Below are positions 1,201 through 45,492 of a stretch of 46,335 nt of DNA, piece by piece (the first letter of the stretch is position 1; the number at the start of each line of letters is the position of its first letter). Source of the stretch: a phage; the NCBI GenBank assembly GCA_033697325.1, contig GCA_033697325.1_4854.1; one strand, given 5' to 3'. The notes under the pieces are model-generated. The model searched no databases, had not been told where the DNA came from, and was given only the letters and a program-made list of their open reading frames with translations. Made by a program: the position numbers and the translations under genes.

Positions 1201-1656
1201 TTAAAAGCCATCAAATATCAATGGTTCTGATGGTTTGCTATGGTTTGGATAATTCATTGCTCGCCAGTCGTTAAATGCCATCATTGCCGCTTCCCAGCCG
1301 AGACAAACACAAGCGAATGAACCTAATCCTTTTGCTGTCTTAAGGTATGCCATTTGTCCAGGCTGCCATTTTGATAAAGTATGATCCATTCTTTTCATCT
1401 CCATAACGAATGATTGCTTTCCGCTAATAATGATGTCTGACGCCCCGAAGTTTAGCGCGCCTTTTTTCTTCAGGTTTTCAACTTCATACCCTTTACGCTT
1501 TCCTTCATTTGGTACATGAATCATAACTCTTGCAAAGTCAGGGTATAGCTTCCTTATCTGATTAACAAAAGTCTCCAGTTCAGCGTCTTCTGACGGGCAC
1601 TTTTTGTTTCTGTAATCTAAATTTCCATATACCTTAACGCCTTCTGGAAAAATCAT
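1201..1656 (-). CDS. VRR-NUC domain nuclease (PD-(D/E)xK family)
   Basis: Motifs VPNEG..., GASDIII, FVMEMKR, LSKWQ match VRR-NUC. ATG at 1656-1654 overlaps the helicase stop (ATGA coupling). Confidence 0.65.
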   Translation of the reverse strand: MIFPEGVKVYGNLDYRNKKCPSEDAELETFVNQIRKLYPDFARVMIHVPNEGKRKGYEVENLKKKGALNFGASDIIISGKQSFVMEMKRMDHTLSKWQPGQMAYLKTAKGLGSFACVCLGWEAAMMAFNDWRAMNYPNHSKPSEPLIFDGF

Positions 1657-4565
1657 AATACCCCCCAATACATGCCTTTAACGTTGAAATATTTACTACC
1701 CTTATCTCTTCTGAACATAATCACTGATGGCGCGACAGCCTCATCTCTTTTAGATATTGCATCATCAATTGACATGTTATGTTCACCAAAGCACTTCTCA
1801 CAAAATTCTTCCCACTCCTTCTTCATCCATTCCTTTTCAGAGTTTGGATTGTAGAACTTGCTAACAAAAAATGGCTTCTGGTCAATAGCAAATTTTACGT
1901 GCACCAAATCTTCACCACTTGAAACGTAATGCTTCATGATGTTCATCATGGTTACGCTTGATTGCTTGGTTGCATAAGGAGACGAATCAAGCCTGTCAGC
2001 TTCTTCCTTTAGCTTTTGGTTGGGGTCAATGATTTCAGCGCCGCATGATGTGCAGTTTCTTGCCGCTATATCATTTTCAAATCCACAATCAGGACACTCT
2101 TTCACCGACCACTTATAAGTACACCTGTGCATTTCCCTTAATGGCCCGTGCATAACGTAGTTTTTACATCTTCTGCCAAAATGAGCAGGCATAGGTTTGC
2201 TTCCAATTTTTTCACCTGACTTATCAAAAATATCAATCATCACCCTGTCACCAGCCAAATCAAGCCAGTAGCCTTCTTTGTCAACTTCCAGATTTTCCGG
2301 ATTTGGGCGCGCGCCAAATTCATTGATAAAGCCACACAACGGGCATTTTACATCCATTGGTACTGATGGTTTTTTCCTTGTTGCCTTTATTTCTGGGGTA
2401 AACAAGTCTCCAGTTTCTGAAAAGTGACGTTGAATATTTCCGGCGTAATCGCTGACAAGAAAGTCTTCCTTTCCCTCATAAAGACGCGTCCCTCTGCCAA
2501 TTATTTGCTGGTAGAGTCTTGGTGACTCTGTTGCTCTCATTACTGCTATATGATCACAATGAGGAACATCCACCCCTACAGTAAGGATATTCTGATTAAC
2601 GATGTATTTAACTTTTTGTGCCTTGAAGTCTGATATTGCCTTGTTGCGATCTGCTGTTGGCATATCACCAAAAACATAACTATAAGAACCGGGAGGAAGT
2701 GACTCCATTATCTCCATAGCGTGTTTCTTGGTACTGGCAAAAATCATCGTTCCGCGCCGATTAACAGAGCGACGGATAATATCTTCAACAATTCGTGATG
2801 TTTTCCTTCCCTTGCCAACCATCGCCTTTTCAACTGAAGCTGTTGTATACCGACCCAACTTATCCTTTTCAAGACAAGACGTATCATATTCTTCAAAAAC
2901 AGGCTCTGTAACTGGTGGCGTAAGATATCCATTTTCAATGAGGAATTTAGCCTCAAGCTCATAAACAACCTTATCATAATATGGGTCAATGGCAGTTTCT
3001 TCATCCGTAGGGCCATCGAGGTAGTGCTCTTTGTAGATGTATCCAGTTCCAAGGCGGTAAGGAGTGGCGGTCATTCCAATAACACGCAGTTTTTGATTGC
3101 GACGCTTCATTTCATTAATAATAAATTTTATGGTTGGCGTGATACCATCGCACTCGTCAATAATGACAGCACCATACTTATCACCAAACATCTCTATTGA
3201 GTTCTTTATTGTAACTGGTGAACCAAACACCACAGGATGACGCAGGTTTTTGGGGCCAGCCTTTGCACTGAACATGCTGGCTGGTTCTCCTGTTAGAGAA
3301 AGATAACGCTGCCTGTTTTGCACAACTAACTCACTTGTTGGGGCAACACACAAAACGCGCTTGCCAGTATTTTTAAAAACCCAATCGGCGATTGATGCAA
3401 CAACAACGCTTTTTCCGCTGTTATGGTGAATCGTGAAATCGCTGGTCAAATACAGATGGTCCCCATCTAAAGTAAATCCATAGAAATCATCTTCTGGTAA
3501 CTCCTCCACCTTAAAACCAGTACAGAGAACATCTTTTTTTTGCTTTCTCTCTTGTGCCACCTTGTAATCAATAAGCGGTTTAAGCATATCGATATCACCA
3601 CTGATACTTACTCTGTACTTTTTGGATACAAAAACACCGTCAAGAGTCGCGTCTCCTACGCCAATATACGCAGCCAGACCTAGTGATCTCGCAACAAACG
3701 CAATATCATCAGCAAGACGACCGGATACAGTGGTTATTTCGTAATAGTTATTGCCAAGATACCCATCAGTATCAACCAAGCCGGAGAGCAGCTCTATACG
3801 CTGTTCTTTTGACGCTATTTTGTAGCACTCAGGTATAAACACAGTGTAAGAGTTTGTGTATTGCAAACCAAGTTTTTTCACTTCATTAAGAATAGCGTTG
3901 CTTTTGTGTTTTCCTCTACCATTTGTTGCCATAAGATTGTGTGTATTTGTGCCATTTTTAACAGAGTCATTAACACAACAACCAAATGACTCTGACACGC
4001 TTTTGAAGTAGTTTATTAGTACATCCTCAGTTCCTGAAAATGTAACGCTACCGTTAGCTGTGGAACCGTCACCAAGAATCATCCCAACAAAACGCGCAGG
4101 TAAAGCCTGTTTAGCCTCTGGGAAGATAACACCTGTTCTGCATAGCTTATGTATATGCTTATGCCATTTTGCTGAACTTTCGTACTCAGCGACAGTTTCG
4201 TCGATGTACGACACCTCTTGAGATGGATATTTATTCACCTGCTTTTGCTTTACTCTCTTGAGATGAAGAATGTGATTCTTGTTAACAACAAAAGAATCAC
4301 CTTTAACTGGTGTAATTTTTCTCATCTCTTCTCGCCCACGGCACAGAGCAAGCACATTTCGTGGCTTGCTGTCCGGGCCCATTAATCTATCTCCGACTGT
4401 AACATCTTCAACGCTCTTGACGCTTCCATCAAACATAATGACTTTCGTTCCTTTGGCGTGACACCCTGTAGGCAAGATGATCATGCACGATGAAACGCTT
4501 GAACGAATATGACCTATAACAGAATCAACAGCTTCTTGTTGGTATGTTCTAAGCTGTACTTTCAT
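1653..4565 (-). CDS. SF2 (DEAD/DEAH-like) DNA helicase, interrupted by an intein; C-terminal zinc-ribbon region
   Basis: Motif I LPTG|SGKS is split by the intein. DExD-like VIIDECDG and MTATPYR motifs. C-terminal CPLCG...CPDCG...CTSCG. Start chosen at ATG 4565-4563, preceded by SD gagagga. Confidence 0.85.
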   Translation of the reverse strand: MKVQLRTYQQEAVDSVIGHIRSSVSSCMIILPTGCHAKGTKVIMFDGSVKSVEDVTVGDRLMGPDSKPRNVLALCRGREEMRKITPVKGDSFVVNKNHILHLKRVKQKQVNKYPSQEVSYIDETVAEYESSAKWHKHIHKLCRTGVIFPEAKQALPARFVGMILGDGSTANGSVTFSGTEDVLINYFKSVSESFGCCVNDSVKNGTNTHNLMATNGRGKHKSNAILNEVKKLGLQYTNSYTVFIPECYKIASKEQRIELLSGLVDTDGYLGNNYYEITTVSGRLADDIAFVARSLGLAAYIGVGDATLDGVFVSKKYRVSISGDIDMLKPLIDYKVAQERKQKKDVLCTGFKVEELPEDDFYGFTLDGDHLYLTSDFTIHHNSGKSVVVASIADWVFKNTGKRVLCVAPTSELVVQNRQRYLSLTGEPASMFSAKAGPKNLRHPVVFGSPVTIKNSIEMFGDKYGAVIIDECDGITPTIKFIINEMKRRNQKLRVIGMTATPYRLGTGYIYKEHYLDGPTDEETAIDPYYDKVVYELEAKFLIENGYLTPPVTEPVFEEYDTSCLEKDKLGRYTTASVEKAMVGKGRKTSRIVEDIIRRSVNRRGTMIFASTKKHAMEIMESLPPGSYSYVFGDMPTADRNKAISDFKAQKVKYIVNQNILTVGVDVPHCDHIAVMRATESPRLYQQIIGRGTRLYEGKEDFLVSDYAGNIQRHFSETGDLFTPEIKATRKKPSVPMDVKCPLCGFINEFGARPNPENLEVDKEGYWLDLAGDRVMIDIFDKSGEKIGSKPMPAHFGRRCKNYVMHGPLREMHRCTYKWSVKECPDCGFENDIAARNCTSCGAEIIDPNQKLKEEADRLDSSPYATKQSSVTMMNIMKHYVSSGEDLVHVKFAIDQKPFFVSKFYNPNSEKEWMKKEWEEFCEKCFGEHNMSIDDAISKRDEAVAPSVIMFRRDKGSKYFNVKGMYWGVL
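3420..4463 (-). mobile_element. Intein (348 aa) with LAGLIDADG homing endonuclease domain inserted in helicase P-loop
   Basis: Begins with Cys right after LPTG and ends ...TIHHN followed by Ser of SGKS. Two LAGLIDADG-like motifs (VGMILGDGS and LSGLVDTDGYL). Confidence 0.8.
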
Positions 4566-4579
4566 AGTGTCCTCTCGAA

Positions 4580-4602
4580 TAAAAAGGGCCACGAATGGCC
4601 CT
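4580..4602 (-). terminator. Intrinsic terminator/attenuator-like hairpin between SSB-like gene and helicase
   Basis: Minus strand agggcc-attcgt-ggccct followed by ttttt, immediately upstream of the helicase SD. Confidence 0.35.
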
Positions 4603-4618
4603 GTCATTCCAATCTAAA

Positions 4619-5140
4619 TTAAAACGGCACATCATCACTAAAGTCCATAGGCGGCTCGTTAGACGGTGCAGATTGCTTAGGAGCAGGTGCTGCTTTTGTC
4701 TGTTGACGACTGAAAACGCCAGCCACATAGTTACCAGTTTTTTGCTTATCCTCAGACTCCCAAACGCGCAGAAGAAGAATCATTGGGCGATTTGCAAGCG
4801 CACTGGCAATGGCAAAATCAGTCGGCTCTTTCCCTGATGCCATCAGCTTACCACCAGCGTTTGCGTCAATTGCTGCAAGCATAGTGATAGCATTGTCGCG
4901 CTGCTTTTCTTTCGAGCTAAATACTTTCAGCTTCTGGAAGATGATGCGATTTTTATACTCACCCTCAAGGATTCGCCACTTAAGATTGAAGAATCGCTCA
5001 CCTTCCCACTGATCGTCTTTACACTCTTCAACGGCAGCAAGAACACGGCTGCCATCAGGAATTACTTCGAAACCACCACCCAGCTCAAATTCAGATTTAG
5101 ATTCAACAGCTTTACCGTCAGAAAGATTCCAGAAACCCAT
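4619..5140 (-). CDS. Putative ssDNA-binding protein with SSB-type acidic C-terminal tip (…NEPPMDFSDDVPF); fold not a canonical SSB by eye
   Basis: C-terminus APSNEPPMDFSDDVPF resembles the E. coli SSB tail. Sits next to Sak4 and Gp157-like genes. ATG at 5140 with SD gagagga. Confidence 0.55.
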   Translation of the reverse strand: MGFWNLSDGKAVESKSEFELGGGFEVIPDGSRVLAAVEECKDDQWEGERFFNLKWRILEGEYKNRIIFQKLKVFSSKEKQRDNAITMLAAIDANAGGKLMASGKEPTDFAIASALANRPMILLLRVWESEDKQKTGNYVAGVFSRQQTKAAPAPKQSAPSNEPPMDFSDDVPF

Positions 5141-5157
5141 TTTTGTGTCCTCTCGAT

Positions 5158-5637
5158 TTATTTGATGATCAGTTTTGGTTTGCCGTCGGTGATGGCACAA
5201 CCCTTAATTTCAATCCCGGCCTTTATCGCATTTTTAATTGCTGCGTTATCTGCCGACACTTTCACAACTCGGTACTGCTCAGGAAGCTGCTCAACAGGAA
5301 CAAACACATCAAGAACTGGTGACGGTTTGCCAAGAGTGATACTGAACAATTTACCTTTGATATTTGTCTTTCCTGACGCCATCATGTTTTGACGAAGATA
5401 ATCTTTAAGGTTATCTATCTTCGCAACTAAAACACGCTTACGCTCAGAAAGACGGTCAATCTCGGATTTAAGTCCAGCTTCATCAGCTTCAAGCTCACGA
5501 ATGTAAGCAGCAACCATTTCAGCCTTTCCTTCAAACTCCTCTTCAATAAGATTGATGGTATCTTCAATCTGCTCCCGTGGAATATCCTCCATCGCCAGCA
5601 GTTCATTAAGCTGTTTGGTTATCTCGTATAGATGCAT
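5158..5637 (-). CDS. Gp157-like phage protein (Sak4-associated)
   Basis: Coiled-coil N-terminus and overall resemblance to the siphovirus Gp157 family. Position between Sak4 and the SSB-like gene. Start uncertain (ATG 5637 or GTG 5652). Confidence 0.5.
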   Translation of the reverse strand: MHLYEITKQLNELLAMEDIPREQIEDTINLIEEEFEGKAEMVAAYIRELEADEAGLKSEIDRLSERKRVLVAKIDNLKDYLRQNMMASGKTNIKGKLFSITLGKPSPVLDVFVPVEQLPEQYRVVKVSADNAAIKNAIKAGIEIKGCAITDGKPKLIIK

Positions 5638-20032: not shown

Positions 20033-20063
20033 ATACTATGCACCACCACTCAATCTACGTCAA
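20033..20063 (-). promoter_or_regulatory. Leftward promoter with motif pair
   Basis: Minus strand TTGACG, then 17-19 nt, then CATAGT or TAGTAT. Confidence 0.4.
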
Positions 20064-20546
20064 CATTTGTTTCCCATGATTGCTATGAAATCCAAACCGT
20101 CTCTCTGCGTTTTTTCTCGCTGACACCGCAGAATCCTTTGAATCAAATCCGCCAAGGTTAATGTGCTTCCCGTTAACCGTTATCCTTGCAACCCACTTGC
20201 GTCTACTCTTGCACCAATGAACACCAGTCACTCCTGACGTATTCATTCTGTGTGTCTTTTGATTTTTCTGGTTTTCAGCGTGACTCACCAGTCTTAAATT
20301 CTCAATCCTGTTATCAAGCCTGTTATGGTTTATGTGGTCAATCTCCATGCCTTCAGGTATCGGGCCGTTATGCATTTCCCATATGATTCTGTGTGCAAGA
20401 TAGCGCTTACGATTATAGCGAACAATCCTGTATCCGAAATTTGTTACAGAGCCAGCAATGTCTCCGGCTTTTTTAGACGCTAGTGGAGGCATCCTCCATA
20501 GCAGATTGATGCCGTCATAATAGAAAACATCACTCCAATCTTTCAT
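20055..20546 (-). CDS. HNH homing endonuclease with AP2-type DNA-binding domain
   Basis: IDHINHNRLDNRIENLRLVSHAENQ HNH motif; C-terminal GVHWCKSRRKWVARITVNGKHINLGGF AP2-like. SD gggag. Confidence 0.75.
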   Translation of the reverse strand: MKDWSDVFYYDGINLLWRMPPLASKKAGDIAGSVTNFGYRIVRYNRKRYLAHRIIWEMHNGPIPEGMEIDHINHNRLDNRIENLRLVSHAENQKNQKTHRMNTSGVTGVHWCKSRRKWVARITVNGKHINLGGFDSKDSAVSARKNAERRFGFHSNHGKQMLT

Positions 20547-20574
20547 GTTGACTACTCCCAATATCCATACCTTC

Positions 20575-20603
20575 AATCTACATCACCAACTTATCTACGT
20601 CAA
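20575..20603 (-). promoter_or_regulatory. Leftward promoter for the HNH gene
   Basis: Minus strand TTGACG, 17-nt spacer, TAGATT; two motif copies. Confidence 0.5.
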
Positions 20604-44608: not shown

Positions 44609-44632
44609 GAAGCCCCTCACGGGGCTTTGTTC
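44609..44632. terminator. Bidirectional intrinsic terminator
   Basis: agcccc-tcac-ggggct hairpin; the loop contains the stop codon of the leftward T5orf172-type gene. Confidence 0.6.
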
Positions 44633-45492
44633 ATTATCTCATCCATTAATTCAGATGAATACTTAAGCCACTCAGTTGCGCCATCAAACCCCGTCAGTCC
44701 TGCACTTTCGTATTTCTTATGAAAATACTTCTCCAATGCTGCTGCGTTAACTCCCGTCATTTTAATATGATGAATTTCATTGAAATTGAACGGAGTCTCC
44801 CTCTTAAGAGTTGCTAGCCGCTGGGTGATCTTATTTGTTATCCCGACCTTTATCCCATACTCACTAATTAAAAAGTAAACATAAGCATTTTTTGTCTTGT
44901 CAAATCCACTCTTTGCACAACCAGGGCAACCGCGCCCCTTAAGGTGATTGGAAGGAGTAACCATGAAATCACCATGAATACCACATGTGACAATGACTTT
45001 CTCTGATACCTTTTTGCATATTGTTTTATCATATTTATACCTAAAAGAGTGAATCAGATTAGATTTAAAAACAAAGTCATGTGTATTAACCCTTCCTTTA
45101 CCAGAGCATTTTTGGCAACCTTGACCACTCAAGTGCTTATCTGGAGATTTCAAAAAATCACCATGCTTTTTGCATGTTATTATTATCTTACTGGTTCCGT
45201 TTTTATATACTGTTTTTCCGTAATCATACAAATCACCATGCTTTAACTTTGCTTTCATTATGAACTCTTCGGTGTTCATCGTCATCCTTGATGATGCGCA
45301 CTCAGCTTGACATTTAATGCATCCTCGACCAAGTAGGTGGTTAGCAGCCCTCTGCTTAAACTCTCCGTGTTTCTTGCAAATTATTGTTACGTAAGATTTA
45401 TTGCCGTTGTATTCAACCATTGAGTAATCATACTTATCCCCATGGATCAATATCGACTTTGACACAAAGTCATTAGTTGTCATTCTTTTCAT
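44617..45492 (-). CDS. Homing-endonuclease-like protein, paralog of 16684-17817 (repeat modules plus T5orf172/MUG113-type domain)
   Basis: Three repeats of HGDKYDY...I.C.KHG.F...P..HL.G.GC.KC, then AYVYFLISEYGIKVGITNKITQRLATL...EWLKY. Confidence 0.6.
   Translation of the reverse strand: MKRMTTNDFVSKSILIHGDKYDYSMVEYNGNKSYVTIICKKHGEFKQRAANHLLGRGCIKCQAECASSRMTMNTEEFIMKAKLKHGDLYDYGKTVYKNGTSKIIITCKKHGDFLKSPDKHLSGQGCQKCSGKGRVNTHDFVFKSNLIHSFRYKYDKTICKKVSEKVIVTCGIHGDFMVTPSNHLKGRGCPGCAKSGFDKTKNAYVYFLISEYGIKVGITNKITQRLATLKRETPFNFNEIHHIKMTGVNAAALEKYFHKKYESAGLTGFDGATEWLKYSSELMDEIMNKAP

What the first reader, a model, noticed from the sequence alone, without database searches (positions are those of the whole stretch)
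3420..4463. LAGLIDADG intein splitting the helicase Walker A motif
The helicase reads LPTG, then a 348-aa insert beginning with Cys and ending HN, then SGKS. That is the classic intein architecture, with an internal double-LAGLIDADG endonuclease. The helicase must be spliced to be active.
Basis: partly seen in the sequence, partly recalled or inferred. Interest (0 to 1): 0.6.

Follow-up and report, generated by a model that had tools for sequence, protein, structure and literature searches.

The report
Homing intein splitting phage helicase P-loop
A phage RadD-like DNA helicase gene carries a 348-residue self-splicing protein insert (an intein with its own homing endonuclease) inside its ATP-binding loop; this is a real but ordinary example of a very common kind of selfish element.

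Summary
On the minus strand, window 3420..4463 encodes 348 in-frame residues (Cys1 ... His-Asn, then Ser+1). They sit between LPTG and SGKS of an SF2 helicase (ORF 1653..4565/4607). Pfam, PDB sequence search and a confident AlphaFold model (pLDDT 94) all identify a PI-SceI-type intein: a Hint splicing domain plus a double-LAGLIDADG endonuclease. Shigella phage Sf11 and Escherichia phage ECO111 5-P carry the same helicase without the insert. They read LPTGSGKSVVV, exactly the predicted spliced product. That product aligns without a gap to E. coli RadD across the Walker A motif.

It is not new in kind. Similar inteins are already annotated in Jerseyvirus helicases, and more than 15,000 cluster representatives match this intein. 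Most of the closest ones sit at the same TG|(S/T/C)GK site.

Four local points are of modest interest:
- The site lies 3 residues upstream of the "classic" GK|T P-loop site.
- The intein is far more diverged from its Klebsiella phage YX3973 counterpart than the helicase around it.
- It is not annotated in the NCBI record.
- A usually conserved endonuclease lysine is Val here.

Splicing and homing are inferred, not shown.

The parts
1653..4565 (-). Helicase precursor gene (970 aa from the likely start ATG at 4565; the longest ORF extends to an ATG at 4607, 984 aa). The end coordinate 1653 includes the stop codon.
   Evidence: ORF list. RBS-like GAGAGGA lies before the ATG at 4565. The exact 970-aa product is NCBI HEI0268529.1 'DEAD/DEAH box helicase family protein [E. 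coli]' and a Logan gene call.
4464..4565 (-). N-extein: 34 aa ending ...CMIILPTG, the first half of Walker A / SF2 motif I.
   Evidence: It is 102/102 nt identical to intein-less Shigella phage Sf11 gp10.
3420..4463 (-). Intein: 348 aa, class 1, PI-SceI-type (Hint splicing domain with an inserted double-LAGLIDADG homing endonuclease).
   Evidence: Pfam Hom_end_hint 8.5e-24, Hom_end and LAGLIDADG_3. PI-SceI at 1.1e-22. AF2 pLDDT 94.2, pTM 0.92. Foldseek 1ef0 (PI-SceI) E=3.9e-24, TM 0.78. Absent from Sf11, ECO111 5-P and RSU-F4K5.
4425..4463 (-). Splicing block A (CHAKGTKVIMFDG). Cys1 is the N-terminal nucleophile.
   Evidence: Cys1 is invariant in 53 aligned relatives.
4260..4301 (-). Splicing block B (GDSFVVNKNHILHL). 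It reads N61-x-x-H64 where many inteins have TxxH.
   Evidence: H64 is invariant and N61 is present in 50 of 53 relatives.
4059..4100 (-). LAGLIDADG motif 1 (PARFVGMILGDGST). Asp132 aligns with the PI-SceI catalytic Asp218.
   Evidence: HMMER alignment. D132 is present in 51 of 53 relatives.
3756..3800 (-). LAGLIDADG motif 2 (RIELLSGLVDTDGYL). Asp233 aligns with the PI-SceI catalytic Asp326.
   Evidence: HMMER alignment. D231 is present in 53 of 53 and D233 in 51 of 53 relatives.
3840..3842 (-). Val208 codon, at the position of PI-SceI Lys301. Nearly all relatives have Lys or Arg here.
3447..3491 (-). Splicing block F (DDFYGFTLDGDHLYL), containing conserved Asp335.
   Evidence: D335 is present in 48 of 53 relatives, with N in the rest.
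3420..3446 (-). Splicing block G (TSDFTIHHN), with penultimate His347 and terminal Asn348.
   Evidence: N348 is invariant and H347 is present in 50 of 53 relatives.
3417..3419 (-). +1 Ser codon (AGC), the C-extein nucleophile and first residue of SGKS.
   Evidence: Intein-less Sf11 and ECO111 5-P use TCT here, RSU-F4K5 uses AGC, and Sa179lw and gmqsjt-1 have Ala (GCA).
1653..3419 (-). C-extein: 588 aa plus stop. It holds the rest of Walker A (SGKS), the RadD-like SF2 helicase core, zinc ribbons and a C-terminal domain.
   Evidence: Pfam ResIII and Helicase_C. E. coli RadD 6jde at E=3.2e-97, colinear. PHROG 16 'DNA helicase' at 8.7e-87.

Best explanation
Window 3420..4463 (-) is a class 1 intein of the PI-SceI (Hom_end_hint) type, carrying a double-LAGLIDADG homing endonuclease. 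It is inserted between Gly34 and Ser35 of the Walker A motif (LPTG|SGKS) of a phage-encoded RadD-like SF2 helicase. The helicase is translated as a 970-aa precursor.

Inferred splicing mechanism: Cys1 makes an N-S acyl shift, the Ser+1 side chain attacks the thioester, and Asn348 cyclises with help from His347 to release the intein. An O-N shift then leaves a normal peptide bond. The result is a 622-aa helicase with an intact P-loop, identical in sequence at the junction to the intein-less orthologs.

Inferred homing mechanism: during co-infection the free intein acts as a site-specific endonuclease. It cuts intein-less helicase alleles around ...CTTGCCTACAGGG^TCTGGAAAAAGC..., and repair from the intein-bearing genome copies the intein in.

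Shown here: the anatomy, the conserved residues, the fold, the empty-site alleles and purifying selection. Not shown: splicing, DNA cleavage and homing.
For: - Boundaries and reading frame.
- Sequence signatures: Pfam Hint, Hom_end and LAGLIDADG on the insert, with ResIII and Helicase_C on the flanks. PI-SceI at E=1.1e-22, with both catalytic Asp aligned.
- Fold: AF2 model pLDDT 94.2. Foldseek top hits are PI-SceI (TM 0.78), TliVMA intein, PI-PfuI and Prp8 inteins, with I-DmoI for the endonuclease lobe.
- Conserved residues: C1, H64 and N348 are invariant, and N61, D132, D233, D335 and H347 are at least 90% conserved among 53 relatives.
- Empty sites: Sf11 gp10 (636 aa as annotated, equal to the window's longest ORF minus the 348-aa insert), ECO111 5-P and RSU-F4K5 read LPTGSGKSVVV. 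The N-extein DNA is 100% and the C-extein DNA 93% identical to Sf11.
- Spliced product: colinear with E. coli RadD through the P-loop.
- Selection, window versus YX3973: exteins omega about 0.02. Intein pN is 0.19 (endonuclease part 0.23) against saturated pS of 0.84.
- Distribution: the same intein at the same site sits on several 47-49 kb contigs of about phage-genome length.
- Precedent: related inteins are already annotated in Jerseyvirus helicases.
Against: There is no experimental evidence for splicing or cleavage. Block B has Asn rather than the common Thr, but this is the family norm (50 of 53). Residue 208 is Val where PI-SceI has Lys301 and about 95% of relatives have Lys or Arg, so one of the two endonuclease active sites may be weakened. 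Only one deposited phage (YX3973) carries an intein at this site, so current homing activity is not demonstrated.
Confidence: 0.92

Rival explanations
1. The intein splices, but its endonuclease is attenuated, acts as a nickase, or is dead. The element would then persist by vertical descent and by ordinary recombination of flanking DNA between co-infecting phages, not by active homing.
For: Val208 replaces the Lys301-equivalent that is Lys or Arg in 47 of 53 relatives and in 121 of 123 motif matches. PMC2425494 reports that the pseudosymmetric lysines of PI-SceI and I-SceI matter for cleavage rate in a strand-specific way. In 50,697 deposited phage genomes only YX3973 carries a related intein at the DNA level.
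Against: Both catalytic Asp residues are conserved. The Val is shared by alleles that are saturated at synonymous sites, and the endonuclease region is still under purifying selection (pN 0.23 vs pS 0.84). That is not expected for a dead domain. Presence/absence polymorphism among about 93-95% identical helicase genes fits ongoing gain and loss. According to PMC2425494 the lysines are 'important but not essential'.
Confidence: 0.2
2. The intein has been co-opted as a conditional switch. Splicing, and therefore helicase activity, would respond to a cue in the infected cell such as redox state, zinc, ssDNA or temperature, as proposed for mycobacterial DnaB and archaeal RadA inteins.
For: The position in the P-loop guarantees that the precursor is inactive. 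The literature argues that P-loop inteins may be selectively retained (PMC4760082). Conditional splicing of the P-loop intein DnaBi1 is documented (PMC6195587, listed). The intein holds seven Cys residues including Cys1.
Against: Nothing in the sequence demands it. Closely related phages do well without the intein, so it is dispensable. The intact endonuclease and patchy distribution are the signature of a selfish element.
Confidence: 0.08
3. The insert is a non-splicing remnant or a native accessory domain, so the helicase either works with it in place or is a pseudogene.
For: None specific. This is only the general fact that splicing has not been observed.
Against: All splicing residues are intact. 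Orthologs lack the insert precisely. The insert separates G34 from S35-G36-K37-S38 of the P-loop. The flanking helicase sequence is under strong purifying selection in intein-bearing alleles (omega 0.02-0.035), so it must still be functional.
Confidence: 0.02

Closest known systems
PI-SceI, the Saccharomyces cerevisiae VMA1 intein (PDB 1VDE, 1LWS, 1EF0)
   Same: Same Pfam families (Hom_end_hint, Hom_end). Best sequence match among solved structures (E=1.1e-22) and best structural match (TM 0.78). Shared features are Cys1, a C-terminal HN, and two LAGLIDADG motifs whose Asp residues align with D218 and D326. The N-terminus is very similar: CHAKGTKVIMFDGS against CFAKGTNVLMADGS.
   Different: It is about 22% identical overall and 106 residues shorter (348 vs 454). 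The host protein is a phage SF2 helicase rather than a V-ATPase. The +1 residue is Ser, not Cys. Block B reads NxxH. The Lys301 equivalent is Val.
Jerseyvirus helicase inteins, e.g. Salmonella phage vB_SenS-Ent1 gp34, annotated 'intein ... homing endonuclease of the LAGLIDADG type'
   Same: Also a 348-aa intein of the same family (38% identity), also in the Walker A motif of a phage helicase, and already annotated as such in GenBank.
   Different: It is inserted three residues further downstream (GSGK|T, the 'classic' site) in a different, non-orthologous helicase. It starts CLKRGT and ends THN, with Thr at +1.
Klebsiella phage YX3973 helicase (QAX91953.1)
   Same: Orthologous helicase (exteins 98% aa) with an intein at exactly the same site, LPTG|C...HHN|SGKS.
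   Different: The intein is only 71% aa and 67% nt identical, and is 346 aa long. It is not annotated as an intein. RefSeq labels the gene 'terminase large subunit'.
Classic P-loop inteins: mycobacteriophage TerL1-a, bacterial DnaB-b, archaeal MCM-a and RFC-a (Kelley 2016, PMC5050341; Novikova 2016, PMC4760082)
   Same: [quoted passage not shown]
   Different: The classic site is between the invariant Lys and Thr/Ser (GK|T). Here it is between the Gly and the variable residue (G|SGKS). In my surveys the G|xGK site is nonetheless the majority among this intein's closest relatives: 120 of 151 copies.

Membership tests
Intein (class 1) | In-frame insertion in a conserved host protein that is precisely absent from orthologs | tested here: met
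   Sf11, ECO111 5-P and RSU-F4K5 read LPTGSGKSVVV. The difference from the window is exactly 1044 nt.
Intein (class 1) | Cys or Ser as first residue (block A nucleophile) | tested here: met
   Cys1 is invariant in 53 relatives.
Intein (class 1) | Block B (T/N)xxH with conserved His | tested here: met
   N61-K-N-H64. His is present in 53 of 53 and Asn in 50 of 53 relatives.
Intein (class 1) | C-terminal His-Asn followed by Cys, Ser or Thr at +1 | tested here: met
   H347-N348 followed by Ser+1. N348 is invariant.
Intein (class 1) | Hint fold | tested here: met
   AF2 pLDDT 94.2. Foldseek matches PI-SceI, TliVMA, PI-PfuI and Prp8 inteins. Pfam Hom_end_hint scores 85 bits against a cut-off of 32.
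Intein (class 1) | Autocatalytic protein splicing that yields ligated exteins and free intein | not testable with these tools
   This needs expression followed by a western blot or mass spectrometry.
LAGLIDADG homing endonuclease (monomeric, two-motif) | Two LAGLIDADG motifs, each ending in a catalytic acidic residue | tested here: met
   D132 and D233 align with PI-SceI D218 and D326. Each is conserved in 51 of 53 relatives.
LAGLIDADG homing endonuclease (monomeric, two-motif) | Pseudo-dimeric alpha-beta-beta-alpha-beta-beta-alpha fold | tested here: met
   Foldseek matches I-DmoI (TM on target about 0.6) and the endonuclease domains of PI-SceI and PI-PfuI.
LAGLIDADG homing endonuclease (monomeric, two-motif) | Peripheral active-site lysines (PI-SceI K301 and K403 equivalents) | tested here: inconclusive
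   The K301 equivalent is Val208, against Lys or Arg in about 95% of relatives. Conserved Lys301 and Lys310 (window numbering) lie near the K403 region, but the alignment there is uncertain.
LAGLIDADG homing endonuclease (monomeric, two-motif) | Site-specific cleavage of the intein-less allele, and homing | not testable with these tools
   Only indirect evidence is available: presence/absence polymorphism and purifying selection.
RadD-like SF2 helicase (host protein) | Colinear similarity to E. coli RadD, including Walker A, DEAH-type motif II, the helicase C domain and the zinc ribbon | tested here: met
   6jde at E=3.2e-97, residues 4-407 and 444-507 aligned. Pfam ResIII and Helicase_C.

The most novel reading that the evidence does not exclude
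The intein lineage at the TG|(S/T/C)GK position may be a distinct, very successful branch of PI-SceI-like inteins. Its endonucleases would recognise DNA encoding the P-loop itself and so hop between non-homologous NTPases. In this phage group several anciently diverged alleles (window type, the 94% type, and the 71% YX3973 type) compete for one site in an almost identical helicase. The clade-specific loss of the Lys301-equivalent would then mark an altered, possibly nicking, cleavage mechanism. A further possibility is that splicing doubles as a regulatory switch for the phage RadD-like helicase.
Probability: 0.12. Interest if true: 0.5.

Novelty: new member of a known kind. Interest (0 to 1): 0.22.

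Why it matters
Mostly it matters for annotation. The NCBI record calls this product a plain 'DEAD/DEAH box helicase family protein', and the YX3973 ortholog is labelled 'terminase large subunit' in RefSeq, because intein sequence contaminates phage protein-family profiles. Recognising the intein gives the true helicase, a 622-aa RadD homolog, and flags a mobile element. The locus would also be a convenient natural system for studying intein homing in coliphages. It offers intein-plus and intein-minus phages with about 93-95% identical helicase genes, at least three diverged intein alleles at one site, and 'immune' alleles with Ala at +1. It does not change what is known about inteins.

Tried and rejected
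- Native helicase domain: rejected, because the intein-less orthologs are precise.
- Free-standing homing endonuclease gene or a frameshifted insertion: rejected, because there is one continuous ORF with Hint blocks at both ends.
- Second intein copy in the window: tblastn of the intein against the window found only itself.
- Same insertion site as the annotated Jerseyvirus, Jedunavirus, Vibrio phage and Bas95 helicase inteins: rejected. Those sit at GxGK|T, three residues downstream.
- Clean phylogenetic separation of the two site classes: a neighbour-joining tree of 60 inteins was star-like, with the classes mostly but not wholly segregated and no support values, so I draw no conclusion from it.
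- Presence in complete E. coli RefSeq genomes: no match.
- Literature on an intein in the Sf11, YX3973 or Sa179lw phage group, or on RadD inteins: none found in the searchable library.
- The primary papers on PI-SceI Lys301 and Lys403 could not be retrieved. Their role is taken from PMC2425494 and from memory.
- dS for the inteins could not be computed, because synonymous sites are saturated.
Full report
**Observation.** The window's longest ORF in this region lies on the minus strand, 1653..4607, and is 984 aa. Translating 3420..4463 (-) gives exactly 348 residues. They begin CHAKGTKVIMFDG and end TSDFTIHHN. They are preceded by ...SSCMIILPTG and followed by SGKSVVVASI. The likely start codon is the ATG at 4565, not 4607. 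It follows a GAGAGGA Shine-Dalgarno-like sequence. The resulting 970-aa protein is the form recorded in NCBI (HEI0268529.1, 'DEAD/DEAH box helicase family protein [Escherichia coli]', third-party annotation) and called on a 46,949-bp Logan contig.

**What the insert is.**
- Pfam on the insert alone gives Hom_end_hint (E=8.5e-24, 85 bits against a cut-off of 32), Hom_end (1.4e-7) and LAGLIDADG_3 (4.8e-7). The flanks carry ResIII and Helicase_C.
- The best solved relative is PI-SceI, the yeast VMA1 intein (E=1.1e-22). In that alignment Asp132 and Asp233 of the two LAGLIDADG motifs fall on the catalytic Asp218 and Asp326.
- An alignment with 52 metagenomic relatives shows Cys1, His64 (block B) and Asn348 invariant. 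Asn61, Asp132, Asp233, Asp335 (block F) and His347 are at least 90% conserved.
- An AlphaFold2 model built on that alignment is confident (pLDDT 94.2, pTM 0.92).
- Foldseek against the PDB returns PI-SceI first (E=3.9e-24, TM 0.78). It then returns the TliVMA intein, PI-PfuI and Prp8 inteins for the Hint part, and I-DmoI for the endonuclease lobe.
- This is a class 1 intein with a monomeric two-motif LAGLIDADG endonuclease.

**Empty sites.**
- Shigella phage Sf11 gp10 is annotated at 636 aa. That equals the window's longest ORF minus the 348-aa insert, and corresponds to the 622-aa product counted from the likely start. It reads ...CMIILPTGSGKSVVVASI..., exactly the predicted spliced product.
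- Its DNA is 102/102 identical to the window's N-extein and 93% identical across the C-extein.
- Escherichia phage ECO111 5-P and Klebsiella phage RSU-F4K5 are likewise empty.
- The spliced sequence aligns without a gap to E. coli RadD (PDB 6jde, E=3.2e-97) through vlptgagks, and on through the helicase core and the zinc ribbon.
- The host protein is therefore a phage RadD-like SF2 helicase. The intein sits between Gly34 and Ser35 of motif I / Walker A, three residues before the invariant Lys37.
- The gene lies in a replication/recombination module: prim-pol, Cro-like repressor, AAA_24 ATPase, Gp157, a DUF669 protein with an acidic DDVPF tail, the helicase, and a small gene that relatives annotate as a VRR-NUC-type nuclease (no Pfam match here).

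**How it most likely works.** This part is inferred from the established class 1 mechanism and is not shown here. Cys1 forms a thioester. Ser+1 attacks it to give a branched intermediate. Asn348 cyclises, assisted by His347, and an O-N shift restores the peptide bond. This yields an intact LPTGSGKS P-loop. Until then the ATP-binding loop is split by 348 residues, so the precursor should be inactive. The released intein should cut intein-less alleles around CTTGCCTACAGGG^TCTGGAAAAAGC, and repair would copy the intein in.

Two indirect observations fit a living element.
- The helicase flanks are under strong purifying selection in intein-bearing alleles (omega 0.02-0.035).
- Between the window and YX3973 inteins, non-synonymous divergence (pN 0.19; 0.23 in the endonuclease part) is far below synonymous divergence, which is saturated (pS 0.84).

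**Comparison with what is known.**
- Inteins of this family are already annotated in phage helicases, for example Salmonella phage vB_SenS-Ent1 gp34 (also 348 aa), St162, 5sent1 and Bas95.
- A tblastn search of 50,697 phage records finds 786 records with a related intein. Mycobacteriophages and Salmonella phages are the most numerous.
- Those annotated helicase inteins, and those of Klebsiella phage MEW1 and Vibrio phage 393E50-1, are inserted at GxGK|T. Kelley et al. call this the 'classic' P-loop site (PMC5050341).
- The window's intein sits three residues upstream, at G|SGKS. This is not rare. Of 59 full-length relatives from the first protein search, 28 are at G|(S/T/C)GK and 31 at GK|(S/T). 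They occur in PhoH, AAA+, RecA-like, DnaB, thymidine kinase, KaiC-like and SF2 proteins.
- Of 151 intein copies in the 150 best 50%-cluster representatives, 120 are at the TG|xGK position (109 followed by S or T, plus 11 of the 12 'other') and 30 are at GK|x.
- The exhaustive search found 15,065 representatives at E<=1e-3 and 3,146 at E<=1e-30.
- Clustering of inteins in P-loops, and probable hopping between P-loops of unrelated proteins, are described in the literature (PMC4760082; PMC10710043).
- The finding is a new member of a known kind.

**Local peculiarities.**
1. The only deposited phage with an intein at this site is Klebsiella phage YX3973. Its exteins are 98% aa and 92% nt identical to the window's, but its intein is 71% aa and 67% nt identical. 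Public assemblies also hold a 346-aa allele about 94% identical to the window's intein, on contigs of roughly 47-49 kb. At least three diverged alleles therefore occupy one site in a nearly constant helicase. This implies that the intein and host gene have separate histories.
2. The +1 Ser codon is AGC in intein-bearing alleles and in empty RSU-F4K5, but TCT in empty Sf11 and ECO111 5-P. Sa179lw and gmqsjt-1 have Ala at that position (GAGKS) and a divergent N-terminal helicase segment, which could not support splicing at this site.
3. Residue 208 is Val where PI-SceI has Lys301 and about 95% of relatives have Lys or Arg. The Val is shared by the whole local clade. According to PMC2425494, the two pseudosymmetric lysines are important but not essential, and they act strand-specifically. 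Cleavage may therefore be altered, and I keep an attenuated-endonuclease rival at about 0.2.

**Verdict.** It is ordinary in kind, and useful mainly for correct annotation and as a tractable coliphage homing system. Interest 0.22.

Noticed in passing
window 20055..20576 (-): A 173-aa ORF with HNH_3 (E=5.7e-25) and AP2 domains. It lies antisense inside the plus-strand late gene block and looks like a free-standing HNH homing endonuclease gene.
   Followed up: partly
window 44617..45492 (-): A 291-aa ORF with T5orf172/MUG113 (GIY-YIG-like) and DUF723/DUF4379 zinc-finger hits. It is probably a second free-standing homing-endonuclease-like gene.
   Followed up: partly
window 3420..4463 (-); NC_054652.1 and NC_020204.1: The intein alone matches PHROG 19299 'terminase large subunit' (9e-20) and phrog_510 'DNA primase'. 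These profiles therefore contain intein sequence. That probably explains why RefSeq labels the intein-bearing helicases of phages YX3973 and JD001 as 'terminase large subunit'.
   Followed up: partly
L003 (Sa179lw) 4877..5092; L009 (gmqsjt-1) 3015..3392: Relatives carry different small extra ORFs between the DUF669/SSB-like gene and the helicase. They also have a divergent helicase N-terminus with GAGKS. This gene junction is a mosaic hot spot.
   Followed up: partly
window 3420..4463 vs L001 (YX3973): The proportion of synonymous differences between the two inteins (0.80-0.93) exceeds the 0.75 expected for random sequence. This may be a codon-usage difference or an artefact of the Nei-Gojobori method.
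   Followed up: no
window 4619..5200 (-): A DUF669-family protein ending in the acidic tail ...DDVPF, like the C-terminal tails of SSB proteins, lies immediately upstream of the helicase. RefSeq calls the YX3973 counterpart a single-strand DNA binding protein.
   Followed up: no
one search hits P0136, P0137, P0139: Several of the best-scoring metagenomic proteins match the intein in two or three separate stretches. That suggests host proteins carrying more than one intein of this family.
   Followed up: no
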